Shown here piece after piece: positions 4,036 through 22,560 of a stretch of DNA of 24,000 nt (positions are counted from its first letter, which is position 1; every line of letters starts with the position of its first letter). Made by a program: the position numbers and the translations under genes. The notes beneath the pieces are model-generated. The model saw only the letters and a program-made list of their open reading frames with translations, was not told the origin of the DNA and did no database searches. The stretch is from positions 2,485-26,484 of the forward strand of contig JBAMLI010000078.1 in the NCBI GenBank assembly GCA_039793645.1, given 5' to 3'. Source of the stretch: an archaeon. Lineage in GTDB: Archaea > Micrarchaeota > Micrarchaeia > Micrarchaeales > CABMGC01.

Positions 4036-4752
4036 ATGCCTATGATAGTTAAGAAGCCATATTATTTGGATGAGGTAATTGCCGAGACGCCAGATGTCAA
4101 GATATTTCGCTTCAAGAGTACAGATGGGAGCAGCCTTGATTTCGAGCCCGGCATGTTTATAATGCTTTACTACAAAGCTAATACCCCAGATGAGATAGGA
4201 AGGGCTTATTCTATAGCTTCAGCTCCAGGCAGCGAAATCATTGAGCTTTTTATAAGCATGGTCCATGGCAGGCTCACCTCTAAGCTTGAAGAAGCAAAGG
4301 TTGGGGACATTTACCATATTTCAGGTCCATATGGCCAATTCAAATTCAATCCAAGTGCAAACAAGAAGGTCTTGTTTATAGCTGGAGGCACAGGCATAGC
4401 CCCTTTCATGTCAATGCTTAGGTTTATAAAAAGCAGAGGGCTTCAGATTGATGTCTCTCTTCTGTATAGCGTAAGATATCCCTATGAGATAATAAGGCGC
4501 TCAGAGCTGGAGGAGCTGGAGAAGAGCATAGGTGCAAAGATTGTGGTTACAGTCACAAGGCCACAGCCTGGTGACAACTGGAATGGAGAAACAGGCCACA
4601 TTAATGAAGATATGGTGAGAAGGAGGGTGCCTGATTTTATGGAAAGAGATCCATATATATGCGGCCCGCCAGCATTCTCAAATGCAATGAAGCAGGTGCT
4701 AAAAAACAGTGGCATAGAAGAGTCAAAAATAAGGGCTGAAATGTGGGGCTAA
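4036..4752 (+). CDS. Ferredoxin-NADP reductase-family FAD/NAD(P)-binding oxidoreductase (PyrK/COG0543-like, no Fe-S domain)
   Basis: RAYSIAS (R-x-Y-S FAD motif), GGTGIAPFMSML (NAD(P)H motif) and YICGPPAF..M (CGP motif). I prefer the ATG at 4036 over the track's TTG at 4030 because TTTATAAA (4004-4011) ends 24 nt upstream of 4036. Confidence 0.75.
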   Translation: MPMIVKKPYYLDEVIAETPDVKIFRFKSTDGSSLDFEPGMFIMLYYKANTPDEIGRAYSIASAPGSEIIELFISMVHGRLTSKLEEAKVGDIYHISGPYGQFKFNPSANKKVLFIAGGTGIAPFMSMLRFIKSRGLQIDVSLLYSVRYPYEIIRRSELEELEKSIGAKIVVTVTRPQPGDNWNGETGHINEDMVRRRVPDFMERDPYICGPPAFSNAMKQVLKNSGIEESKIRAEMWG

Positions 4753-5651
4753 ATGCTCCTCTCTGAGAGGTAAAGCAATATTGCCTCTTCTACAAGAAGC
4801 TTATTCTTTGCCTGCTGCCATACAACGCTCTGCGGGCCGTCAAGCACCTCGCTTGTTATCTCTTCGTCGCGGTGTGCAGGCAGGCAGTGCATCACTATGG
4901 CGTTCTTTTTGGCATAGCCAAGGAGAGTTGAATTTACTTGGTATGGTGCAAAAAGCTTCTTCCTCTGCTCCGCCTCTTCCTCCTGCCCCATGCTTACAAA
5001 TGTGTCAGTATAAATTATATCCGCATCTGCCACCCCTTCCTTAATATCATTGTAAACGCTTACCTTGCTGTACTCCCTTGCCTTTGTAAAATAGAATGTA
5101 TTTGGCATGTAATTCTTAGGCCCTACAAGCGCTATTTCCATACCCATCTTGGCCCCGGCAAGCATAAGAGAATTGGCCGTATTGGCTGCTATATCTCCAA
5201 CAAACGCAAGCTTTAGGCCCCTAAGCTTCTTTTTTATCTCTTGGATAGTATAGAGGTCGCTTAGGGCTTGGCATGGATGTTCTACATCAGTAAGTGCATT
5301 GATTACTGGCACTGTGGCATTGTTTGCAAGCTCTACAATGTCATCATGCTTGTAGAGCCTTGCTATTATAAAATCAACATAGCCGCTCAGCACTTTGGCG
5401 GTATCTGATATGCTCTCTCCGCGCGAGAGCTGGGAAGTCCTTGCATCTATATATATTGAATAGCCGCCAAGCTTAGCCATCGCAACTTCAAAAGAAACTC
5501 TCGTCCTTGTAGAAGGCTTCTCAAATATAAGGGCTGCAACAGCGTTTTCTTTTAAGGCTATCTCGCTCTTGTTCTGCTTTAGATCATCAGCGATCTCAAA
5601 TATCTCCAAAATGTCCTCTTTTGAGAGGTCACCAACACTTATCAGGTTCAT
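4749..5651 (-). CDS. argF: Ornithine carbamoyltransferase
   Basis: STRTRVSFE (carbamoyl-phosphate site), HPCQALSDL, DTFVSMG and HCLPAHR. HCLP is diagnostic for OTCase, whereas ATCase has HPLPR. I moved the start to M18 (MNLISVGDLSKEDILEIF...), which matches canonical OTC N-termini and removes the overlap with the upstream ORF. The track start is 5702. Confidence 0.9.
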   Translation of the reverse strand: MNLISVGDLSKEDILEIFEIADDLKQNKSEIALKENAVAALIFEKPSTRTRVSFEVAMAKLGGYSIYIDARTSQLSRGESISDTAKVLSGYVDFIIARLYKHDDIVELANNATVPVINALTDVEHPCQALSDLYTIQEIKKKLRGLKLAFVGDIAANTANSLMLAGAKMGMEIALVGPKNYMPNTFYFTKAREYSKVSVYNDIKEGVADADIIYTDTFVSMGQEEEAEQRKKLFAPYQVNSTLLGYAKKNAIVMHCLPAHRDEEITSEVLDGPQSVVWQQAKNKLLVEEAILLYLSERSI

Positions 5652-5655
5652 GGGA

Positions 5656-6027
5656 TCAACCGAATATGGAACCAAACCCCTCATCAGCCTTCCTTCTTTC
5701 ATCCTCTACAAGCATTATTACTTTGGACTCTATGTCAGGCTCTGCCCTCTTAAGGCCTTCTATATTCTTGAGCTTTTTTTCAGCTTTGTCTAGAAATGAA
5801 TCCTGCGCATTTAGGAAGAGGTAGCACTTGGAAGGGTCGAGGCTTATGGAAGCCCCCTCCTTTATCACATAATCCTGCCTTGCAAATATTATATTAGCCA
5901 TTTCATCTTCCCTGATTTTTTTGAGATCCTCTTCCTTTATCTTAGGGTCAAGATATGGATCATATTCAAGCATCTTCTTAAGCTCGCCCTCTTTTTCTAC
6001 AGGGCATACATAAACTCTTGCAGACAT
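5656..6027 (-). CDS. Hypothetical 123-aa protein with a ribosomal-stalk (aP1/P1-P2)-like C-terminal tail
   Basis: The ORF is tightly nested, starting 1 nt after the rps8e stop and ending 4 nt before the argF start. The C-terminus ...EDERRKADEGFGSIFG-COOH is an acidic stretch plus G-F-G-x-[IL]-F-G at the extreme end. I do not recognise the family of the body. Confidence 0.6.
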   Translation of the reverse strand: MSARVYVCPVEKEGELKKMLEYDPYLDPKIKEEDLKKIREDEMANIIFARQDYVIKEGASISLDPSKCYLFLNAQDSFLDKAEKKLKNIEGLKRAEPDIESKVIMLVEDERRKADEGFGSIFG

Positions 6028-6028
6028 T

Positions 6029-6424
6029 TTACTTCACCAATTTTGCATTTACGAATCCTTCTTTGCCAGGCCTGTTTGTTACGACAGCTCTCCCAAGTTC
6101 CGTCTCTATTATAGTGCCTTTCGTTATTATATTAAGCCTAGCAAAGTTCCTATTGTCTTTCGACTCCACAACTCCTTTTATCTTCACCTTTTTGTAAGTA
6201 CCATCAACAAGGAGGTTCGCATAGCCTGCATTCTTCAGCTTGTCCTTTTTTCTGCCTCCCCTCATCCTCACTTTTTTAATAACATTCTCTTCGCCAAGCC
6301 TAGTAGCGGCAAAATAGCCTCCTATCTCATGCCTCTTTTTGTCCCTGCTCTTTATCTTGAGTTTGCCATTCCCTGCAAGCTTTCTTTTTGAAGCTCCATG
6401 GTACTGTATTCCAAATTGGCTCAT
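6029..6424 (-). CDS. rps8e: 30S ribosomal protein eS8 (S8e)
   Basis: 131 aa. MSQFGIQYHGASKRKLAGNGK...KKRHEIGG...ARLNIITKG..IETELG.AVVTNRPG..G.VNA.L is the typical S8e pattern. Confidence 0.9.
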   Translation of the reverse strand: MSQFGIQYHGASKRKLAGNGKLKIKSRDKKRHEIGGYFAATRLGEENVIKKVRMRGGRKKDKLKNAGYANLLVDGTYKKVKIKGVVESKDNRNFARLNIITKGTIIETELGRAVVTNRPGKEGFVNAKLVK

Positions 6425-6575
6425 AAAATCACAGAATTTGCAGTATTATATTGCATCTGAATTTTTAAATACTTATTTGTTGTCTTTGCCTTCATTTCTG
6501 CAGGAGCTCAGAGCTTGAGCCCAGGTTACTATCTAAAAAGATAATGATATAAATCTAAAATGAGCAGAATAATCG

Positions 6576-8885
6576 ATGATTGAATTCATAGAGCTCAGAA
6601 ACTGGAAGACGCATGAGAATACAAAGCTTAGCTTTACCAAGGGGACGAATGTGCTTATAGGCCAGATGGGCTCTGGCAAAAGCTCGGTGATGGATGCTAT
6701 CTCTTATGCTCTTTTTGGAACCTTCCCTGCATTGCAGCGCAGGAGAATCAGCACTTCTGACCTTATAAGAAATGTCCCAGTGCAGGAAAGCTATGCAGAA
6801 GTCAGGCTTGGGCTCAGCATAGAAGGCAATGAATATGTTGTAGAAAGAAGGATAGAGCTTTCAGGCTCATCGCACGCGCGCATATTCAAGAATGGCTCTA
6901 TCGTGCAGTCCCAGCCACAAAGGGTTAATGAATATCTAGAAAATCTGCTAAAGCTTGACTATGACCTGTTTTCAAGGGCGATTTATTCGGAGCAAAACAA
7001 TCTTGACTACTTCCTTGAACTCAGGAGCGGGGAGAGGAAAGATATTATAGACAAGCTTCTTGGCCTTGACAAATTTGCAATTGCAGAGGACAATGTAGTA
7101 AGCCTTGTAAATAGGGTCAAAGAGATGGCCAAGCAGGCGGAGGATTCAGCAGGAAGCTTTGACCTTAAAAAGCTCACCGAGCAGCTTGAAAAGGCGAAGG
7201 AGGAGCTTAAGCAGCTTAAGGATGAGAAAGAAAAACTCAGCCTAAAATACGATGAGCTTAAGGAAAGTGTAAGCAAACAGGAGAAAAAGGTGAAGGAGCT
7301 CCTGGCGAAAGATTCGAGGAAGAGGGAGCTTGAAAAAGAATTCAAGAGCTTGGAGGGAAGGATTGCGCTAATAGAGAGGGAGGCGAAGAAGATAGAAGAG
7401 ATGAAAATAAAGCCTGAGGAGCTCGAATCTATGATAAGTTCGCTATCGAGCAAGCTTGAAAAGGCAAGAAGCGAGCTAAAGACATCTGAAGGGTTGGAGC
7501 TGGAGTTGGGAAGGAGTGCAGCAAGGCTCGAGAGCGAAGCCAAGAAAATAGAAGAGCAGATAAGGGAAAGGGACTCAATTCTTAAAGAGATTGGAGAAAG
7601 GAAAATTGAAGAGTACACAAGGAGAAAGGAGGAGAAGGAGAAGGAGCTCGAGCAGCTTGAAAAGGCCCTTGCGTCAAGCAAAGCCAGGAAGGATGAGCTT
7701 GAAAAGCACATAGAGGAGCTCTCTGAGCACATAAGTAAATGCCCAGTCTGCGAGAGGGAGCTGAGCGATGAGATGAGGCTAAAGCTTCTAGAAGGCAAGA
7801 AAAAGGTTTTGAATAAGGTTGAAGAAGAGATAAAAAACGGATTGAAGCTTGTCGAGGCTTCGAGAAAGGAAGTAAAGCAACTAAGCGAAGAGCTCAATTC
7901 GCTCCTTATTGCAAATGAAAAGCTCAAGAACTATGTTGCCCTTGATGAAAAGCTCATTAAGCTTAAGGCTGAGCTCAATGAAAAAGAAAAAGAAAGCGCT
8001 ATTGCAAAGGAGAAGAAGGAGAGTCTATCAAAGCAGGAAAGCGAGCTCTCGGAAGAGCTGGTAAAATTCAAAGAAAGAAGGAAGGACATCGAGAAGCTCA
8101 ACTCATACAAGAAGGAGGCAGCAGAGCTGGCAGAAAAGATGGGCCTCCTCAAAATAGAGATCGAGAAGCTGGAAAGAGAAGCGAGCAGCAAGCTTATTGA
8201 AGAAGAGCAAAAAGAGCTTACAAGGCTCAGCTCTCTACTTAGCTCTACCCAAGCAAATTTGGCAGCTATAGAGAAGGCGGCAGGGGAGAAGGGGAAAGAG
8301 ATAGCCGAGAAAGAAGAAACAATAAAGCATATCCAGGACCTTGCCAAAGATGCTGAAAAGAAGAAGAAAGCAGCAGAAGAGCTTGCGAAGTTCAAGAACG
8401 CTCTTTCAGAAACCCAAGGTATGCTTAGGTCAAAGCTCATAAATTCAATAAACCATATAATGGGCGAGATTTGGCCTGAGCTTTATCCTTATGGCGATTA
8501 CATTGGCATAAGGCTTGATGCAAGCAAAGATGATTATGTTCTTGAAGTCAAGATGGTCAGGAATGGTGCAGAAGAATGGTGCGCAGTTGAGAGCATAGCA
8601 AGTGGTGGGGAAAGGAGCATAGCGTGCTTGGCGATGCGCGTTGCCTTTGCGCTTGTCCTCGTTCCGAACCTCAAGTGGCTGATATTGGATGAGCCTACTC
8701 ACAATATAGATGAGCAAGGGATTGGAAAGTTTGCAAGGGTATTTAACGAAACTCTCCCTAGAATAGTAGAGCAGATTTTTCTAATAACGCATGACGAGGC
8801 GCTCAAGCAGGCATCAAGCTCAAAGACCTACCTGCTGAGCAGGGACAAGGCAGCGCATGGAAGTACAGTTGTAGAAGAGCTTTAA
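6576..8885 (+). CDS. rad50: Rad50-type SMC-family DNA double-strand break repair ATPase
   Basis: 769 aa. The N-terminal Walker A is GQMGSGKSS and the Q-loop is YSEQNN. A long E/K/L-rich coiled coil carries a central zinc hook, CPVC (nt 7740-7751). The C-terminal signature is SGGERSIACLAMRVAFAL, Walker B is LILDEPTHNID and the His switch is ITHDE. Confidence 0.85.
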   Translation: MIEFIELRNWKTHENTKLSFTKGTNVLIGQMGSGKSSVMDAISYALFGTFPALQRRRISTSDLIRNVPVQESYAEVRLGLSIEGNEYVVERRIELSGSSHARIFKNGSIVQSQPQRVNEYLENLLKLDYDLFSRAIYSEQNNLDYFLELRSGERKDIIDKLLGLDKFAIAEDNVVSLVNRVKEMAKQAEDSAGSFDLKKLTEQLEKAKEELKQLKDEKEKLSLKYDELKESVSKQEKKVKELLAKDSRKRELEKEFKSLEGRIALIEREAKKIEEMKIKPEELESMISSLSSKLEKARSELKTSEGLELELGRSAARLESEAKKIEEQIRERDSILKEIGERKIEEYTRRKEEKEKELEQLEKALASSKARKDELEKHIEELSEHISKCPVCERELSDEMRLKLLEGKKKVLNKVEEEIKNGLKLVEASRKEVKQLSEELNSLLIANEKLKNYVALDEKLIKLKAELNEKEKESAIAKEKKESLSKQESELSEELVKFKERRKDIEKLNSYKKEAAELAEKMGLLKIEIEKLEREASSKLIEEEQKELTRLSSLLSSTQANLAAIEKAAGEKGKEIAEKEETIKHIQDLAKDAEKKKKAAEELAKFKNALSETQGMLRSKLINSINHIMGEIWPELYPYGDYIGIRLDASKDDYVLEVKMVRNGAEEWCAVESIASGGERSIACLAMRVAFALVLVPNLKWLILDEPTHNIDEQGIGKFARVFNETLPRIVEQIFLITHDEALKQASSSKTYLLSRDKAAHGSTVVEEL

Positions 8886-17215: not shown

Positions 17216-18190
17216 ATGCTTTTCTTTTGCCTAATAGATTTATATAACCCGACAGTGGTAGGAGTATACTCTGCCCTTCTCATTGCATTTTTGCTTGGCA
17301 TAATTCATGGAATAACGCCTGATGAGCATACATGGCCAATAACATTTAGCTACGCCATCGGCTCTTACAGCACAAAGAAAGGTGCCAAGGCTGGGCTCCT
17401 ATTCTCGCTTGGCTTTACTGTCCAGAGGGCGATTTTTGCCGAACTTGCATACATTGCTCTAGCACCTCTTTTCTTCTCCGATTGGTTCGATGCTGTAGTT
17501 TTCGTGCTCGTTGGAATTGTCATGGCAATCTCAGGCTTCTATATATTGAGGAAGGATATCTACCTCCACTGGCATTGGCTTGCCAATGTAGTATGCAGAT
17601 TCTTCCACTCTTGCATAGGGGTGCACGATAAGGATATATATGAGAAGGAGGGATTAGGGAGCCACGACATGTTTGCAAGGCACAAGGTTCTTGAACCTAG
17701 GTCTGTGCCGCTTAGGCTTACTTTCATACATGGTCTTATAGCAGGATTTGGATTTGGTGCTTTTGCACTAATACTGTTTACAGTGATCGTCCCTGCAATG
17801 CCAAACGTTTGGGTTGCATGGGTCCCAGGCTTCCTCTACGGGCTAGGCACCATGGTGATGCAAGTAATACTTGGTGCAGCCATAGGTGCTTGGCTAAAAA
17901 AGAGAAAATTTGCAGAGAACCAGATCGCCTACATAGCCAGAAAGACTTCTGGAAGGATGCTTGCATATGGTGGAATTGCATTTTTCGTAGCTGGCATGTT
18001 GCTCTTTTTCTTCCCGAGCCTAAATGAATACAATATAGTAACCCCTTTGAAAATACACAACCTTGATTCTCTTGGAATTGGATTCTTCCTCGTTATTATC
18101 GTAATTGTAATTATAGCAATACCTTCATATAAGCTTGCCGTGAAGGAGGCAAAAGCACTTAAGCAGGAAAATGTAAATAGCAGAGATTAG
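17216..18190 (+). CDS. Integral membrane protein, possible metal-ion transporter (two TM bundles separated by a His/Cys-rich loop)
   Basis: 324 aa with about 8 TM helices. It has an IIHGITPDEHTWP motif in TM1 (reminiscent of H-x4-P-[GD]-H in NicO/RcnA-type proteins). The central loop is YLHWHWLANVVCRFFHSCIGVHDKD...GSHDMFARH (nt ~17549-17710). The functional call is tentative. Confidence 0.55.
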   Translation: MLFFCLIDLYNPTVVGVYSALLIAFLLGIIHGITPDEHTWPITFSYAIGSYSTKKGAKAGLLFSLGFTVQRAIFAELAYIALAPLFFSDWFDAVVFVLVGIVMAISGFYILRKDIYLHWHWLANVVCRFFHSCIGVHDKDIYEKEGLGSHDMFARHKVLEPRSVPLRLTFIHGLIAGFGFGAFALILFTVIVPAMPNVWVAWVPGFLYGLGTMVMQVILGAAIGAWLKKRKFAENQIAYIARKTSGRMLAYGGIAFFVAGMLLFFFPSLNEYNIVTPLKIHNLDSLGIGFFLVIIVIVIIAIPSYKLAVKEAKALKQENVNSRD

Positions 18191-19152
18191 CGCTCCTTCT
18201 TTTTTATAATCCTGCAAAATTTTTTAAGGTCTGCCTCCATCCTCTTTCTTGTTTTTGGAAACCTTAATGCTGCGGCAGGATGATATGTTATAAAATAAGT
18301 TATCCCTCCTCTATTTGTCTTCTTGCCATGGTTGGCTTCGATATTCTCTATTCCAAGCATAGCTTCTGCCGCTACCCTCCCTAATAGTATAATAAACTTT
18401 GGCTTTACAATCTCTATCTCCTTTTCCAAGAAAGGCTTGCATAGCTCAACCTCCTTTTTTGTCGGTTCCCTGTTCTTAGGAGGAAAAAACTGCACAACAC
18501 TTGTTATATAAAAATCTTCTCTGCTTAGCATTGCCTTCTTGAGCATCTCATCGAGAAGTCTACCGCTTCTTCCTACAAAAGGCCTTAGCATTTGATCTTC
18601 TACCTTACCAGGAGCTTGGCCAAGCAGCATAGCTTTTGCATTTAATGGCCCTTCTCCTGGGACAAATCTTTTGCCAAGGCTCCAGCCCCTCAATTTGCTT
18701 AACTGCTTGTATTTTTTGTTCAGCTCTTCCATTGCTTCATATCTTTTAATGTAGTCATAGGCTATTGTAAGCAACTGCTTCATGTCCTTGTACTTCATTC
18801 TTTCCATAGCCTTTTCATATCCAAGCCATACATATCCTTTATGTTCGGATGAAATCTTTATTGTAGCATTTTCACCGACTTTAGAAATGAAAGTGGCCAC
18901 TCTTTTAAGTACTCTTTCTTTGCCTTCAGAAAAGAAATACCTGTTTACATATTTGAAATATGGCAAAAACTCCACATCTAGCCCAGTTTCTTCTTTTATC
19001 TCCCGTTTTGCAGTCTCCATTGCAGTCTCATTATTCTCAAAATGCCCTTTGGGTATATCTAACTCATTTTTATGTGAGATAAGAAAAAGGAATTTTATCC
19101 TACCATTTTCTTTTTTGTATATAATGGCGCCTGCCGAAAAATCAAACATCAT
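18187..19152 (-). CDS. Nudix hydrolase / family-4-type uracil-DNA glycosylase fusion protein
   Basis: The N-terminus has a perfect Nudix box, GHFENNETAMETAKREIKEETGL (G-x5-E-x7-R-E-U-x-E-E-x-G-U, nt 18979-19047). The C-terminal UDG family 4 motifs are GEGPLNAKAMLLGQAPGKVEDQMLRPFVGRSGRLL and ...HPAAALR. The start is 6 nt after the archaeosortase stop. Confidence 0.85.
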   Translation of the reverse strand: MMFDFSAGAIIYKKENGRIKFLFLISHKNELDIPKGHFENNETAMETAKREIKEETGLDVEFLPYFKYVNRYFFSEGKERVLKRVATFISKVGENATIKISSEHKGYVWLGYEKAMERMKYKDMKQLLTIAYDYIKRYEAMEELNKKYKQLSKLRGWSLGKRFVPGEGPLNAKAMLLGQAPGKVEDQMLRPFVGRSGRLLDEMLKKAMLSREDFYITSVVQFFPPKNREPTKKEVELCKPFLEKEIEIVKPKFIILLGRVAAEAMLGIENIEANHGKKTNRGGITYFITYHPAAALRFPKTRKRMEADLKKFCRIIKKKER

Positions 19153-19158
19153 AAGAAA

Positions 19159-20664
19159 CTACCTGAACAACTTTTCATTTAAGCAATATGCGCTTTCAAG
19201 CCTGCTCATGGTTGTGGAGTTGTAAATTCCAAGGTTGAAGAGACTATAAAATGTGCTGTATAAATGGGAGTAGTTGCAGCTCAATCCAAGGAAGCCTGCG
19301 CTCTCAGGCATGACCGCATATTCAGCCATTATGCCATACCCTCCATTGTAGACATATGGCACTTTTTTGATTGCTACAAAATAGACAGAATTATTGTAAT
19401 ATACCTCATATATCTCGGTGTTTATCCCATCACTCCCCATGAAGGTAGCATGAGCTTCTATGCTAACGTTTGAAAAGAGCGCCTTTTCTGCCTCTTTGTT
19501 TGGAGGCTCAACAAGCATCGATATTGGATTGCTTGCATTGAATGTTGAGTTTGCAAAGAGTATCACCTCAGAAGAGTTTGAGAATGTATATGAAATGTAG
19601 TGGAAGCCTGTAGCGTTTACGCTGCTGGCTATGAATCTATCAAATTCAGCCCCTTCAAGAGGCGTTGAGCTGTGAGGAATTGCAGGAGAGAAGGAAGCGC
19701 TATTGGCATAGTTTGAAAAAATGGCTAGATAAATAAGTGCATATATTATAGGAAGAGCGAGCGAGAAAATTGCGAGCCTGCTGTATCTCTCTTTTACCCT
19801 CGATTTCTTTCCTTTTTCTATCTTGGGAATTTTAAGGCCAAACAGGCTCGGAATGAGAACAATTATTACTACTGTTGCATAGAATATTGCCATGCCTGCA
19901 AAGCTGTGCGCAAATGAGGCGCTTGCATTTGGCCCATAATAGAACCATGAGAGTGCAATGCCGAACATCCTTGCGATGTTCAACAAAAGAAGCACCGCGA
20001 ATCCAGAGAGCACCCAAAGAACCTTCTTGCTTGCTTTGCCCTCGAAAAGGTAAGCAAGCGGTATAAGAAACATCACAATTCCTATAAGTGCACCTATGCC
20101 CGCACAGCTTTCTCCAATACCCAATGTATAGTTCTTCCCTATTATGCTTATGGGCGGCACAAATATGATGCTCTTGTCAAGCGCATGCAATACCCAATAT
20201 ACTATATATGCATTCATCTCGGCAAACACTTGGTTGAATGCAAACAAAGGAGCAAGCAAAATTGGAGAAGCAAACATTGAATATATTAATAGGGCTTTGA
20301 ATTTGTTGATTTCCCTGAGCCCAAACATGGTTATGGCTATGCTTGCTATTGCCAACGGAAAGACAAGCATGTCAAGCCTGAAGCTCATGAAGAGGAATGA
20401 AAAGTAGTAGCGGAGATAAAATATTAAGAGCAAGAGAGCTGCAAACAGAGACAATCCAATTAAAATATCTTGCCACTTTGCACTAGGCTCTATCTTTTGC
20501 TTGAAGACAAATATCCCAAAAAGCGGGAGCATAATCATTGGTACAACGATATATGTAGAAGGATCTGTGTCAAGTATGCTGCTAGGCGTAGCCATCAATG
20601 GGTTGAAAAGCATTATCACCAAAGCAGCTATGAAAGCAGCGATATATACAATTCTTTTTTTCAT
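19159..20664 (-). CDS. Archaeosortase/exosortase-family membrane protein with extra C-terminal TM and extracytoplasmic domain
   Basis: A polytopic N-terminal ~320 aa carries the family triad context: LGIGESCAGIGALIG (Cys), LLLLNIARMFGIAL (Arg) and AHSFAGMAIFY (His). One more TM and a ~180-aa domain with 8 N-x-S/T sequons follow. I prefer the ATG at 20664 (MKKRIVYIAAF...) because a GAGGA SD lies 7 nt upstream. The track start is the GTG at 20697. Confidence 0.65.
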   Translation of the reverse strand: MKKRIVYIAAFIAALVIMLFNPLMATPSSILDTDPSTYIVVPMIMLPLFGIFVFKQKIEPSAKWQDILIGLSLFAALLLLIFYLRYYFSFLFMSFRLDMLVFPLAIASIAITMFGLREINKFKALLIYSMFASPILLAPLFAFNQVFAEMNAYIVYWVLHALDKSIIFVPPISIIGKNYTLGIGESCAGIGALIGIVMFLIPLAYLFEGKASKKVLWVLSGFAVLLLLNIARMFGIALSWFYYGPNASASFAHSFAGMAIFYATVVIIVLIPSLFGLKIPKIEKGKKSRVKERYSRLAIFSLALPIIYALIYLAIFSNYANSASFSPAIPHSSTPLEGAEFDRFIASSVNATGFHYISYTFSNSSEVILFANSTFNASNPISMLVEPPNKEAEKALFSNVSIEAHATFMGSDGINTEIYEVYYNNSVYFVAIKKVPYVYNGGYGIMAEYAVMPESAGFLGLSCNYSHLYSTFYSLFNLGIYNSTTMSRLESAYCLNEKLFR

Positions 20665-20749
20665 CAAATCGTCCTCAGTCGATATAGGCTTCATCACCTT
20701 TCAGCAGTTACTCTATTCTTCACAGGACAGATTTACTTCTGATTCTACA

Positions 20750-20780: not shown

Positions 20781-21215
20781 ATGCAACGGATAAAATTTAG
20801 ATACCTGCCCCATACAGCAGATGTAAAGTTTGTAGCATATGGGAAAAGCTTTAAGGAAGCATTGGAGAATGCAGCAAAAGCGATGCTTGGCATAATGCTC
20901 GATATTAAAAAAATAGAAAATTCTAGCGCTAAGCCAAAGAGTATACAAATAAATGAATCTGCAAGCACAAAGGAGGACCTTGTGTGGTTTACTTTGCAGG
21001 ACCTGCTCTCAAAGATAGATGAAAAAGCACTTAATGCGTATGATTTTAAGGTAACCAAGCTTGAAGGGGTGAAAAAGCTAAAGCTTAAGGGCAAGCTTTT
21101 CTTCAAAGAAGTAGGGAAGGATTACCATCTTTTGGAGATAAAAGCAGTAACGCCGCATGATCTGCGGGTCGAAAAGGCAGAGAATTGGAAAGTTTTTGTA
21201 TTAGTTGATGTTTAG
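20781..21215 (+). CDS. Archease (RtcB tRNA-ligase / tRNA m5C methyltransferase cofactor family)
   Basis: 144 aa. FRYLPHTADVKFVAYGKSFKEALENAAKAM (the H-T-A-D...G.....a signature), and the C-terminal ...EIKAVTPHDLRV... is typical of archease. Confidence 0.85.
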   Translation: MQRIKFRYLPHTADVKFVAYGKSFKEALENAAKAMLGIMLDIKKIENSSAKPKSIQINESASTKEDLVWFTLQDLLSKIDEKALNAYDFKVTKLEGVKKLKLKGKLFFKEVGKDYHLLEIKAVTPHDLRVEKAENWKVFVLVDV

Positions 21216-21426: not shown

Positions 21427-22560
21427 ATGAGGGCAATTGAAAATGTTCCAAGCGAGTTTGTTTCAGAAACAGTAACTTTTGATTACAAAGATCCAGTAAC
21501 AGAGGCGATTAGCAAGGTAAAGGACTATACAGCAGTTATAGTAAACAAGAATGATGAGTATTATGGGATTGTAGACGATAGGACGCTCATAAGAAAGGGA
21601 GCGATAAAGCTCAATAAAAAACAGTCAATAGGCAAGTTCGCGAAGAAGGTCCCAACTCTAGACAGATCGACTACAATAGAAAGGGCGATAATGTACTTTT
21701 ACTATGAAGGCGTGAAGGCTCTGCCATATTCTGATGAAGATAAAATAAAAGGAATTGTCAAGAGGACGGAGATACTTAAAGCCATTCTCTCCCTTCATCT
21801 GCTCTCAAAATATAAAGTGGAGAACGCTATGACTTCGCCAGTGATAGGAATTGATGCTGATGCAAATATAGCCCAAGCAAAGGCCGTTATGGCTAAAAAC
21901 AAGATAAACAGGCTTGTGGTAATAAAAAACGGGTCATTATACGGGCTCATAACATTCAGGGAGATAGTGGAGACATTTGCAAAAGCAACAGAGAGATCGC
22001 CTCAAAGGAGGAATTATTATTACACCCTTAGCAACACCCCAGTGAGCAGTGTATGCCAAAGGAGCGTGCTTGCTATAGAGCAAGAAAGCCCTCTTGAAGA
22101 TGCAATAAGGCTTATGGTAGAGAGGGGAATTTCTTCATTGGTAGTGACAAAGAACGACAAGCCTGTGGGCATTGTAACTGTGAGGGATGTCTTCGGCCTT
22201 ATAGTTTCTTTAAGCACAGAAGAAGAAAACAAAATAATAATCTCAGGCTTAGACGACTATACAAAAGAGTATGAGGAAGACATAAGGGCTGAGCTCAACG
22301 ACATGGTGAACAAGATAAACAGGTTCAGCAAAGTAAAAGTTGATTATGTCGCATTAAATGTAAAGAGGTCAAAGGTCAGGAACTATGAGATGCATGCCAA
22401 GGTGGTTTTGAAAAAAGGCGGTTCTGTGGCAGCTTCAGCCACGGGATACAGTATGAGCAGCGTGTTAAAAGAAATAATTAATAGGCTATACAATGAGGTG
22501 AAAGAAAAGAAGGAGCTTATCATCGCCCAGTTTAAGGGCAACAGTATTGTGGTATTATGA
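21427..22560 (+). CDS. Four-CBS-domain protein with C-terminal HPF/RaiA (S30AE)-like domain
   Basis: 377 aa. There are four CBS-like repeats (...YYGIVDDRTLIRK; ...IKGIVKRTEILKA; ...LYGLITFREIVE; ...PVGIVTVRDVFGLI). The C-terminal aa 269-362 resemble hibernation promoting factor (see findings). A TATA-like TTTAAATA lies 22 nt upstream of the ATG. The stop overlaps the next gene's ATG (ATGA). Confidence 0.8.
   Translation: MRAIENVPSEFVSETVTFDYKDPVTEAISKVKDYTAVIVNKNDEYYGIVDDRTLIRKGAIKLNKKQSIGKFAKKVPTLDRSTTIERAIMYFYYEGVKALPYSDEDKIKGIVKRTEILKAILSLHLLSKYKVENAMTSPVIGIDADANIAQAKAVMAKNKINRLVVIKNGSLYGLITFREIVETFAKATERSPQRRNYYYTLSNTPVSSVCQRSVLAIEQESPLEDAIRLMVERGISSLVVTKNDKPVGIVTVRDVFGLIVSLSTEEENKIIISGLDDYTKEYEEDIRAELNDMVNKINRFSKVKVDYVALNVKRSKVRNYEMHAKVVLKKGGSVAASATGYSMSSVLKEIINRLYNEVKEKKELIIAQFKGNSIVVL

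What the first reader, a model, noticed from the sequence alone, without database searches (positions are those of the whole stretch)
5656..6027. Small protein after rps8e ends in a ribosomal P-stalk-like tail (DEGFGSIFG-COOH)
Seen: the 123-aa ORF is wedged between rps8e (1-nt gap) and argF (4-nt gap). It terminates in ...LVEDERRKADEGFGSIFG at the extreme C-terminus (nt ~5659-5706).

Established: the conserved tail of archaeal aP1 (acidic stretch plus G-L-[SG]-x-L-F-G-COOH) and of eukaryotic P1/P2 (...DDDMGFGLFD-COOH) is the element that recruits translational GTPases (aEF1A, aEF2, aIF5B) and ABCE1 to the ribosome.

Inference: a non-stalk protein carrying this tail could act in two ways. It could be a decoy or competitor for translation GTPases, or it could be an adaptor delivering its N-terminal domain to them. 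The body (VYVCPVEKEGELKKMLEYDPYLDP...IIFARQDYVIKEGASISLDPSKCYLF...) is not a family I recognise.
Basis: partly seen in the sequence, partly recalled or inferred. Interest (0 to 1): 0.68.

Follow-up and report, generated by a model that had tools for sequence, protein, structure and literature searches.

The report
Small archaeal protein with stalk-like tail
A small, unannotated protein found in many archaea ends in the same short tail that the ribosome's P-stalk uses to bind translation factors, so it may act on those factors away from the stalk; this has not been tested.

Summary
ORF 5656-6027 (-) encodes 123 aa ending ...RRKADEGFGSIFG. It lies 1 nt after rps8e and 4 nt before argF. It is a real gene from a family of hundreds of proteins, all labelled 'hypothetical', with no Pfam, NCBIfam or PDB relative. 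The family is not limited to Micrarchaeota: it also occurs in other DPANN lineages, Methanothrix, Methanoperedens, Methanocellales, Thermoplasmata and DHVE2. The body is a generic ferredoxin-like alpha/beta domain (AF2 pLDDT 85-89) whose last long helix runs into the tail. The tail is the best-conserved part: 63 of 70 hits of a plain phmmer search end in it, and its two glycines are the only invariant columns of the broad alignment. hhalign aligns it end-to-end with the last 13 residues of P. horikoshii aP1. It keeps the equivalents of G102, L103, L106 and F107, which published mutagenesis shows are needed to bind aEF1A, aEF2 and aIF5B. The rps8e linkage holds only in the insert-bearing Micrarchaeota clade. 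Neighbours elsewhere are often translation-related (Nep1, PheRS, Trp/TyrRS). Best reading: a trans-acting protein that engages translational GTPases through a stalk-type tail. Binding, and the choice between decoy and adaptor, remain untested. Four literature searches found no description.

The parts
5656..6027 (-). Gene for the 123-aa protein, including the TGA stop at 5656-5658. It belongs to an unannotated archaeal family.
   Evidence: ORF list and sequence. 46 close homologues, 70 representatives at 50% identity and 488 hits with a broad profile, all 'hypothetical' with no Pfam domain. AF2 model pLDDT 88.8.
5659..5697 (-). C-terminal 13 residues R111-G123 (RRKADEGFGSIFG): the stalk-type tail. 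G117, F118, I121, F122 and G123 correspond to aP1 G102, L103, L106, F107 and G108; A114 corresponds to aP1 A99.
   Evidence: hhalign of A4 against P. horikoshii aP1. Tail statistics. The aP1 sequence was checked against PDB 3a1y_A and 3wy9_C. Essential residues are from PMC5887453, PMC4267659 and PMC6791870. The tail has pLDDT below 50 in both models, as expected of a motif that folds on binding.
5671..5739 (-). Long C-terminal helix alpha3 (residues 97-119), acidic and amphipathic, leading straight into the tail with no flexible hinge.
   Evidence: DSSP on the AF2 models: H97-119 in the window protein and H73-96 in the Methanothrix homologue. Conserved I at -16, E at -13 and A at -9.
5746..6024 (-). 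Ferredoxin-like alpha/beta core (residues 2-94): beta1, alpha1, beta2, beta3, alpha2 and a short beta4. Conserved Y6, F48, R50 and G58.
   Evidence: AF2 models. The best Foldseek PDB matches are PII/GlnK, KH, ACT and designed ferredoxin folds, none better than E=0.017.
5890..5949 (-). Clade-specific helical insert (about residues 27-46, DPKIKEEDLKKIREDEMANI). It is absent from the 92-107 aa forms in other lineages and about 30 aa longer in the 150-160 aa forms.
   Evidence: Alignments A1, A2 and A4. Helix 32-40 in the model.
6029..6424 (-). rps8e (ribosomal protein S8e), immediately upstream. Its stop is 1 nt from the ATG, so the two genes are probably co-transcribed and translationally coupled (inference).
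   Evidence: Pfam PF01201 and TIGR00307. The same order is seen in L001-L004 and in six GTDB loci.
4749..5651 (-). argF (ornithine carbamoyltransferase), 4 nt downstream. It is the third gene of the apparent rps8e-X-argF unit.
   Evidence: NCBIfam NF001986 1.4e-115 and Pfam OTCace and OTCace_N. Synteny in L001-L004 and five GTDB loci.
6425..6475 (-). Intergenic region upstream of rps8e with A/T-rich TATA-like boxes (ATTTAAAAA at 6462-6470, TATAATA at 6444-6450). This is the likely promoter for the unit (inference only).
   Evidence: Read directly from the sequence. No archaeal promoter tool was available.

Best explanation
The gene encodes a small acidic protein (14 kDa, pI about 5) of a widespread, undescribed archaeal family. 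A compact ferredoxin-like domain carries a long C-terminal helix that ends in a P-stalk-type motif: an acidic run, then A-x-x-G-hydrophobic-G-x-I-F-G-COOH. The proposed mechanism, which is inferred and not shown, has three steps. First, the tail docks into the same hydrophobic grooves of aEF1A, aEF2, aIF5B and possibly ABCE1 that receive the C-terminus of aP1 and aP0. Second, the protein therefore engages these factors in trans, away from the canonical stalk. Third, it either tethers them to whatever the ferredoxin-like domain binds (adaptor or escort), or competes with the stalk for them (buffer or decoy). Shown here: the gene is real, the family is broad and unannotated, the tail is its most conserved element and must sit at the C-terminus, and the tail matches the aP1 binding residues position by position. 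Inferred: binding to the factors, the direction of the effect on translation, and the partner of the body.
For: Tail conservation: 63 of 70 unbiased phmmer hits carry it. G at -6 and G at -4 are 63/63, F at -1 is 61/63, I at -2 is 52/63, A at -9 is 51/63 and E at -13 is 50/63. G117 and G119 are the only invariant columns while body identity falls to 20-30%. hhalign aligns the family's last 13 columns with aP1 96-108, end to end, as its only hit. Mutants G102S, L103S, L106S and F107S, and deletion of the last three residues, abolish aP1 binding to aEF1A or aEF2 (PMC5887453, PMC4267659, PMC6791870); their equivalents are the conserved positions here. Two family members give a weak hit to the extreme C-terminus of the archaeal L10/aP0 model NF003098. 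In the one tandem two-domain form read in full (P0186, 194 aa) only the C-terminal copy carries the motif; L093 (190 aa) likewise ends in it. This fits a requirement for a free C-terminus. A DNA pattern for the tail plus a stop codon hit 63 family genes, all archaeal, among 120 GTDB loci. It hit no other archaeal protein family, and no family member among 46 viral matches. Neighbours are repeatedly translation-related: rps8e with a 1-nt gap, Nep1/EMG1 directly downstream in three Thermoplasmata/DHVE2 loci, and PheRS-alpha and Trp/TyrRS in Methanocellales and one Methanoperedenaceae locus. No PDB chain matches the family profile, which implies that no modelled archaeal ribosome chain belongs to it.
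Against: No binding data exist. The similarity to aP1 is a 13-residue motif with pairwise P=0.01. Family-profile searches of the PDB at E up to 10 did not retrieve stalk proteins, and a 23-residue tail query found nothing. Unlike aP1, the tail has no long flexible hinge; it sits directly on a structured helix, which could restrict access to the factor grooves. Position -4 is an invariant Gly where P. horikoshii and A. pernix aP1 have Ser. Position -2 is mostly Ile rather than Leu or Met. Gene neighbourhoods are not conserved across lineages, so the context evidence is weak. aP1 and aP0 tails from the same genomes could not be retrieved for comparison.
Confidence: 0.5

Rival explanations
1. It is a lineage-specific ribosomal or ribosome-bound protein: an auxiliary mini-stalk. 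The ferredoxin-like domain would bind the ribosome directly, and the tail would add one more factor-recruiting arm in cis.
For: The gene starts 1 nt after rps8e, an arrangement that suggests translational coupling, in the Micrarchaeota clade. Nep1 is a neighbour in Thermoplasmata. The gene is a conserved, housekeeping-like small gene in many lineages. Conserved basic residues (R50; K/R around beta2) could contact rRNA. aP1 itself is acidic, so the low pI does not exclude this.
Against: The family profile matches no chain in the PDB, including all deposited archaeal ribosome structures, although the species solved may simply lack the gene. The median pI is 4.95, and no RNA-binding fold was identified: the KH-like hits are insignificant and there is no GXXG loop. 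The rps8e linkage is restricted to one clade.
Confidence: 0.2
2. The C-terminal hydrophobic-Phe-Gly is an HbYX-like docking motif for the 20S proteasome alpha-ring, or for another ring-shaped partner. The protein would then be a proteasome regulator or adaptor, not a translation factor partner.
For: The last three residues (I-F-G) have the form hydrophobic-aromatic-X at a free C-terminus. This resembles HbYX motifs of archaeal proteasome activators (from my own knowledge, not tested here). The motif must be C-terminal.
Against: The penultimate residue is Phe in 61 of 63 sequences and Tyr in 1 of 63, whereas HbYX is defined by Tyr. Conservation extends at least 13 residues upstream (A at -9, G at -6, G at -4, an acidic run), which matches aP1 and goes beyond a tripeptide. 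No proteasome genes appear in any neighbourhood examined.
Confidence: 0.07
3. The tail has a role unrelated to translation factors, such as self-association of a PII-like trimer, autoinhibitory packing on its own domain, or binding to an unknown partner. Under this reading the resemblance to aP1 is convergence on a Gly-rich hydrophobic peptide.
For: The similarity is short and statistically weak. The best fold matches are trimeric PII/GlnK and CutA proteins. Only 2 of 45 members touch the aP0 model, at E about 0.05.
Against: The register matches aP1 exactly from the C-terminus, and it matches at the four experimentally essential positions plus A99 and the acidic run (PMC5887453). AF2 leaves the tail unpacked with low confidence instead of docking it on the domain. 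Neighbours are biased towards translation.
Confidence: 0.15
4. It is a non-canonical nucleotide-exchange or recycling factor for aEF1A. The aP1-like helix would bind aEF1A-GDP between domains 1 and 3, and the ferredoxin-like body, which has the same topology as aEF1B, would promote GDP release. This is a special case of the best explanation.
For: The body has a beta-alpha-beta-beta-alpha-beta topology like that known for aEF1B (my own knowledge; models). The aP1 C-terminal domain binds aEF1A-GDP as a long helix (PMC6791870, PMC4267659), and here the tail continues a long helix.
Against: There is no Pfam EF1_GNE hit. aEF1B structures were not among the top 50 Foldseek matches for either model. 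Presence or absence of aEF1B in these genomes could not be checked.
Confidence: 0.08

Closest known systems
Archaeal ribosomal stalk protein aP1 (L12P, Ribosomal_60s) and the C-terminus of its anchor aP0
   Same: Both have an acidic run followed by A-x-x-G-hydrophobic-[G/S]-x-hydrophobic-F-G at the extreme C-terminus, in the same register from the carboxyl end. The equivalents of G102, L103, L106 and F107 are conserved (PMC5887453, PMC4267659, PMC6791870). Both proteins are small and acidic.
   Different: There is no Ribosomal_60s domain and no four-helix dimerisation domain for binding aP0. There is no Ala/Glu/Lys-rich flexible hinge. The body is an unrelated alpha/beta domain. Position -4 is always Gly and position -2 is mostly Ile.
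Eukaryotic P1/P2/P0 tails (...DDDMGFGLFD-COOH)
   Same: Both have a GFG core and a penultimate Phe preceded by acidic residues. A few family members even end in ...GMGTIFD with a terminal Asp (P0140, P0148).
   Different: The eukaryotic spacing is one residue shorter (G-F-G-L-F-D). The family follows the archaeal spacing (G-hydrophobic-x-x-hydrophobic-F-G). The eukaryotic sequence is quoted from my own knowledge; the conserved LF motif is from PMC4267659.
Ferredoxin-like small domains (PII/GlnK, ACT, type I KH)
   Same: The predicted beta-alpha-beta-beta-alpha-beta sandwich resembles these folds. The best Foldseek matches are A. fulgidus GlnK3 (E=0.017, TM 0.46) and KH domains (E=0.07).
   Different: The scores are not significant. 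There is no T-loop, no GXXG loop and no sequence similarity, and the family has an extra long C-terminal helix. The resemblance is at fold level only.
Recently described archaeal ribosome hibernation factors (Dri, SriA-D, HibA, AHA, aRDF)
   Same: These are also small trans-acting archaeal proteins that modulate the translation apparatus, and they were recognised only recently (PMC13004131, PMC13324472, PMC12934967, PMC11724365).
   Different: Dri, Sri, HibA and AHA are built from CBS and/or HPF-like domains that occupy ribosome functional sites (abstracts; Sri text). No stalk-type tail is mentioned in the abstracts or in the parts of the Sri paper that were read. No sequence or domain relationship was seen in the Pfam scans of this family.
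HbYX-motif proteasome activators (PAN, Cdc48, PbaA/B)
   Same: Both have a functional motif of the form hydrophobic-aromatic-X that must sit at the free C-terminus.
   Different: The penultimate residue here is Phe, not Tyr (61 of 63). The conserved region extends 13 or more residues and matches aP1. There is no AAA+ or PAC2 domain.

Membership tests
aP1 / Ribosomal_60s (PF00428; archaeal P1) | Significant match to the Ribosomal_60s or archaeal P1 profile | tested here: not met
   No such hit among 18 family members scanned against Pfam, or among these and the 45 members of A4 scanned against NCBIfam, at E up to 1-10. hhalign against P. horikoshii aP1 aligns only the last 13 residues.
aP1 / Ribosomal_60s | N-terminal all-helical dimerisation domain that binds aP0 | tested here: not met
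   The AF2 models show an alpha/beta domain with 3-4 strands.
aP1 / Ribosomal_60s | Long flexible Ala/Glu/Lys-rich hinge between the body and the tail | tested here: not met
   The tail follows a structured helix directly, with pLDDT above 90 up to about 10 residues from the end. The sequence has no low-complexity linker.
aP1 / Ribosomal_60s | Conserved C-terminal factor-binding motif (G102, L103, L106, F107, G108-COOH in P. horikoshii) | tested here: met
   G117, F118, I121, F122 and G123-COOH. Family-wide, G at -6 is 63/63, a hydrophobic residue at -5 is 63/63, [ILMV] at -2 is 63/63 and F at -1 is 61/63. The register was confirmed by hhalign.
aP1 / Ribosomal_60s | Binding to aEF1A, aEF2 and aIF5B, and incorporation into the 50S stalk | not testable with these tools
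aEF1B (EF1_GNE, PF00736) | Match to the EF-1 guanine nucleotide exchange domain profile or structure | tested here: not met
   No Pfam hit. aEF1B structures were not among the top 50 Foldseek PDB matches.
PII/GlnK-like signalling proteins | Significant sequence or structure match, with a T-loop and a trimer nucleotide site | tested here: inconclusive
   These are the best Foldseek hits, but with E=0.017-0.1 and TM about 0.46. There is no Pfam P-II hit. Oligomeric state was not tested.
KH domain | GXXG loop between the two helices of a beta-alpha-alpha-beta-beta-alpha fold | tested here: not met
   The alignments contain no GXXG. The second helix is a clade-specific insert that short forms lack. 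Foldseek E=0.07.
HbYX proteasome-docking proteins | Penultimate Tyr in a C-terminal hydrophobic-Tyr-X motif | tested here: not met
   The penultimate position is Phe in 61/63, Tyr in 1/63 and Leu in 1/63.
CBS-type archaeal hibernation factors (Dri, Sri, HibA, AHA) | Tandem CBS domains and/or an HPF/RaiA domain | tested here: not met
   No CBS or HPF hit in any family member scanned. The definitions are from PMC13004131 and PMC13324472.

The most novel reading that the evidence does not exclude
This family would be the first cellular, non-ribosomal protein that carries a functional P-stalk C-terminal motif. It would be a free-standing stalk mimic that binds aEF1A, aEF2, aIF5B or ABCE1 off the ribosome. 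In that way it would control the size or location of the translational GTPase pool, acting as a buffer or decoy in slow-growing and host-dependent archaea, or as an escort that hands factors to a second partner. This would be a layer of translation control not yet described in any domain of life.
Probability: 0.4. Interest if true: 0.82.

Novelty: new variant of a known kind. Interest (0 to 1): 0.7.

Why it matters
The P-stalk C-terminal peptide is the handle by which archaeal and eukaryotic ribosomes recruit and activate translational GTPases and ABCE1. So far it is known only on the stalk proteins themselves (aP0/aP1, P0/P1/P2). A conserved soluble protein carrying the same handle on an unrelated domain would mean that cells can address these factors away from the stalk. 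Possible uses are sequestering them, escorting them, or delivering them elsewhere. The family occurs in reduced-genome DPANN archaea and in environmentally important methanogens and methanotrophs (Methanothrix, Methanoperedens, Methanocellales), yet it has no Pfam or NCBIfam model and no solved structure. The hypothesis can be tested directly with assays already established for aP1: peptide pull-downs, fluorescence polarisation and in vitro translation.

Tried and rejected
- **Pfam and NCBIfam scans.** The window protein and distant members were scanned: 18 against Pfam, and these plus the 45 members of A4 against NCBIfam. No consistent family emerged. The only recurring hit of interest was a weak match (E about 0.05, 2 of 45 members) to the last 44 positions of archaeal L10/aP0.
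- **PDB sequence-profile searches.** Alignments A1 and A4 found nothing meaningful. A 23-residue tail query found nothing.
- **Foldseek against the PDB.** Two AF2 models gave only generic ferredoxin-like matches, none better than E=0.017. KH, PII and aEF1B membership were rejected or left inconclusive.
- **The search for related loci on genome contigs.** A degenerate DNA pattern for the tail plus a stop codon was used instead.
- **Viral origin.** The same pattern in IMG/VR gave 46 hits and no family member, so a viral origin was rejected.
- **Operon logic.** All-against-all clustering of neighbours in 63 loci found only lineage-specific linkages. The rps8e linkage is not family-wide.
- **Same-genome stalk tails.** aP1 and aP0 tails could not be recovered: none lie in the window or in the fetched loci.
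- **Literature.** Four full-text searches found no description of the family. The recently published Sri, Dri, HibA and AHA factors are CBS or HPF proteins and are unrelated.
Full report
**1. Observation**

The ORF at 5656-6027 on the minus strand encodes 123 aa with an ATG start. It ends ...VIMLVEDERRKADEGFGSIFG followed by TGA.

The gene directly upstream (6029-6424, minus) is ribosomal protein S8e (PF01201 8.4e-27; TIGR00307 3.9e-28). Its TAA stop is separated from the ATG by a single A.

The gene downstream is ornithine carbamoyltransferase (NF001986 1.4e-115). The mechanical ORF list extends it to 5702. However, the Pfam match starts at residue 2 of the version that begins at the ATG at 5651, and orthologues are 296-301 aa.

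There is no room for a promoter between rps8e and the ORF, so co-transcription with rps8e is the simplest reading. A/T-rich TATA-like boxes lie upstream of rps8e. Both points are inference only.

**2. It is a real gene from a large, unannotated family**

- A word-indexed search found 46 homologues down to 40% identity. All were named 'hypothetical', and those with an organism label came from Micrarchaeota MAGs.
- An exhaustive phmmer search of 1.84 billion cluster representatives found 70 hits. These included many 97-107 aa proteins at 29-45% identity.
- A profile built from a broad alignment found 488 proteins. Again all were 'hypothetical' and none had a precomputed Pfam domain.
- hmmscan was run on the window protein and distant members: 18 against Pfam, and these plus the 45 members of A4 against NCBIfam release 20. 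It gave no consistent family.
- Profile searches of all PDB sequences found no relative.

**3. Distribution**

I therefore scanned the GTDB species representatives with a degenerate DNA pattern for A-x-x-G-x-G-x-I-F-G followed by a stop codon.

- 63 of the 120 loci carry an ORF that matches the family HMM at E<1e-3.
- All 63 are archaeal: Micrarchaeota/Micrarchaeia, Aenigmatarchaeota, Woesearchaeota, Pacearchaeota and other 'Nanobdellati', Methanoperedens (many), Methanocellales, Methanothrix/Methanosaeta, Thermoplasmata and DHVE2.
- The other 57 hits do not match the family HMM: bacterial matches, mostly short stretches or sites where the last triplet is TGG rather than a stop, and two chance matches in archaeal contigs (L081, L088).
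- No other archaeal protein family, and no aP1, was hit.
- The same pattern in IMG/VR gave 46 hits and no family member.

One Methanothrix-type member lies on a 3.04-Mb contig.

**4. Architecture**

AF2 models of the window protein (pLDDT 88.8, pTM 0.78) and of a 98-aa Methanothrix member (pLDDT 85.4) agree. Both show the order beta1, alpha1, beta2, beta3, alpha2, a short beta4, then a long helix alpha3. That helix covers residues 97-119 in the window protein and runs straight into the tail. The tail itself has pLDDT below 50.

The window protein and its close relatives carry a helical insert of about 20 aa (residues 27-46). One sub-clade has a further insert of about 30 aa, giving 150-160 aa forms. 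Most other lineages lack both.

Foldseek against the PDB returned only generic ferredoxin-like folds: GlnK/PII, KH, ACT, CutA and designed ferredoxins. The best score was E=0.017 with TM about 0.46. The body is therefore a small alpha/beta sandwich with no assignable superfamily. The proteins are acidic: pI is 4.96 for the window protein and the family median is 4.95.

**5. The tail**

The tail statistics below come from the plain phmmer hit list, which did not select on the tail.

- 63 of 70 proteins end in G-[FLIMV]-G-x-[ILMV]-F followed by G, or rarely GG, D, Q, T, E or K.
- The seven exceptions are four sequences whose C-terminal end does not resemble the family (apparently cut or frameshifted), one 2074-aa protein that looks unrelated, and two variants ending GISLF and GLSLFE. 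These two variants are closer still to the aP1 sequence GLSALFG.

Counting back from the Phe at position -1:

| Position | Residue | Count |
|---|---|---|
| -1 | F | 61/63 |
| -2 | I | 52/63 |
| -4 | G | 63/63 |
| -5 | F (other hydrophobic in the rest) | 39/63 |
| -6 | G | 63/63 |
| -9 | A | 51/63 |
| -13 | E | 50/63 |
| -16 | I | 52/63 |

In the 30-sequence broad alignment the only invariant columns are the two tail glycines. In the 45-sequence alignment the body drops to 20-30% identity. That alignment's own tail invariance is partly a result of how its members were selected. In the one tandem two-domain form read in full (P0186, 194 aa) only the C-terminal copy has the motif; L093 (190 aa) likewise ends in it.

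**6. Comparison with the stalk**

The sequence of P. horikoshii aP1 was confirmed against PDB 3a1y_A (residues 1-58) and 3wy9_C (the last 32 residues, [32 protein letters not shown]).

hhalign of the family alignment against aP1 gives one hit. Family columns 92-104 (consensus ee~A~~G~GsIFG) align with aP1 96-108 ([13 protein letters not shown]), C-terminus to C-terminus, with pairwise P and E of 0.01.

Published work supports the importance of these positions:
- L103S, L106S and F107S abolish complex formation with aEF1A, and L100S weakens it (PMC4267659).
- G102, L103, L106 and F107 are critical for aEF2, and G102S disrupts binding. The same residues serve aIF5B (PMC5887453).
- Removing L106-F107-G108 abolishes aEF1A binding. 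The Kd of the 14-mer [14 protein letters not shown] is about 10-24 uM (PMC6791870).

These four residues map onto G117, F118, I121 and F122 of the window protein, which are exactly the conserved positions. A99 maps onto the conserved A114, and the acidic run is shared.

The differences are an invariant Gly at -4 where the two aP1 peptides quoted in PMC6791870 have Ser, Ile rather than Leu or Met at -2, and no flexible hinge. The statistical signal at profile level is weak: 2 of 45 members touch the end of the aP0 model at E about 0.05. The argument therefore rests on conservation and on positional correspondence, not on homology statistics.

**7. Genomic context**

- **rps8e-X order.** It recurs in relatives at 60% and 43% identity (L001-L004) and in six GTDB loci, all of insert-bearing long forms. 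The full rps8e-X-argF order is kept in L001-L004 and in five of those six loci. None of the other family loci has rps8e within three genes.
- **DPANN.** In one contig the gene sits just upstream of rpoH-rpoB-rpoA. In another it has no informative neighbours.
- **Thermoplasmata and DHVE2.** In three loci the next gene on the same strand is the rRNA methyltransferase Nep1/EMG1 (PF03587 2.8e-63).
- **Methanocellales.** In three loci the gene lies next to, or one ORF from, the divergently oriented PheRS alpha gene (the beta gene follows in L131). A class Ib Trp/TyrRS lies nearby in two of them and in one Methanoperedenaceae locus, and in L131 a tRNA-splicing endonuclease follows it.
- **Methanothrix-type contigs (L129, L130).** It follows a polyprenyl synthase and a 73-aa DUF8180 gene.

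The neighbourhoods are thus lineage-specific but lean towards translation and information processing.

**8. Interpretation**

The best-supported reading is a trans-acting protein whose C-terminal helix and tail engage the stalk-binding grooves of translational GTPases and perhaps ABCE1. The evidence here cannot tell whether it competes with the stalk (buffer or decoy) or tethers the factors to a partner of the ferredoxin-like domain (adaptor or escort).

A ribosome-bound 'extra stalk arm' is a serious rival, given the 1-nt spacing from rps8e. However, no solved archaeal ribosome contains a family member, and the protein shows no RNA-binding signature.

An HbYX-type proteasome-docking reading is unlikely because the penultimate residue is Phe, not Tyr, and the conserved stretch is much longer than a tripeptide. 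A convergent, unrelated role for the tail cannot be excluded without binding data.

**9. Novelty**

Four full-text literature searches found no description of this family. The recently reported archaeal translation modulators Sri, Dri, HibA and AHA are CBS or HPF proteins and are unrelated. Within the limits of the libraries searched, the family appears undescribed.

I classify it as a new variant of a known kind: the stalk-type factor-binding C-terminus on a third, non-stalk carrier. The function is still to be shown.

Noticed in passing
window 21427-22560 (+): A 377-aa protein with four CBS domains (Pfam CBS 1.4e-37, 4 stretches) and an N-terminal region of about 200 aa with no match. Four tandem CBS domains are the hallmark of the recently described archaeal ribosome hibernation factors Sri and Dri (PMC13004131), so this may be a Micrarchaeota homologue.
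   Followed up: no
P0186 (194 aa); L093 minus strand (190 aa, Aenigmatarchaeota): Tandem duplication of the ferredoxin-like domain within one protein. In P0186 only the second, C-terminal copy carries the G-F-G-x-I-F-G tail; L093 also ends in it.
   Followed up: partly
P0140, P0148 (109 aa); P0083, P0093, P0152: Tail variants. Some end ...GMGTIFD, with a terminal Asp as in eukaryotic P proteins. Others end ...GISLF, ...GLSLFE or ...GISLFE, with Ser at -4 as in P. horikoshii aP1.
   Followed up: partly
L027, L035, L057, L063, L092, L093, L108, L120 (Aenigmatarchaeota and unnamed archaeal MAGs): In eight loci a conserved protein of about 170-220 aa with a charged, unmatched sequence (motif ...APLFVKIDRYNSVL...) lies within three ORFs downstream of the family gene. 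In five of the eight it is the next ORF on the same strand. It has no Pfam hit.
   Followed up: partly
L058 (JAVYSI010000008.1, labelled Methanothrix sp.): This contig carries a 154-aa long-form family member with the Micrarchaeota-type rps8e-X-argF synteny. The contig is probably mis-binned into a Methanothrix MAG.
   Followed up: no
window 18187-19152 (-): A single 321-aa ORF combines an N-terminal NUDIX domain (6.6e-14) with a C-terminal uracil-DNA glycosylase domain (2.7e-36).
   Followed up: no
window 6576-8885 (+): A Rad50-like SMC ATPase with a zinc hook (769 aa) is divergently transcribed from rps8e. No Mre11 nuclease (Metallophos) domain was found among the 20 larger window ORFs scanned.
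   Followed up: no
L129 5768-5989 and L130 1726-1947 (Methanothrix-type contigs): A 73-aa DUF8180 gene sits 12 nt upstream of the family gene on the same strand in both contigs. It is a possible partner of unknown function.
   Followed up: no
window 19159-20697 (-) and 20781-21215 (+): A 512-aa exosortase/archaeosortase-family membrane protein (PF09721 5.3e-19) lies next to an archease gene (PF01951 5.8e-27).
   Followed up: no
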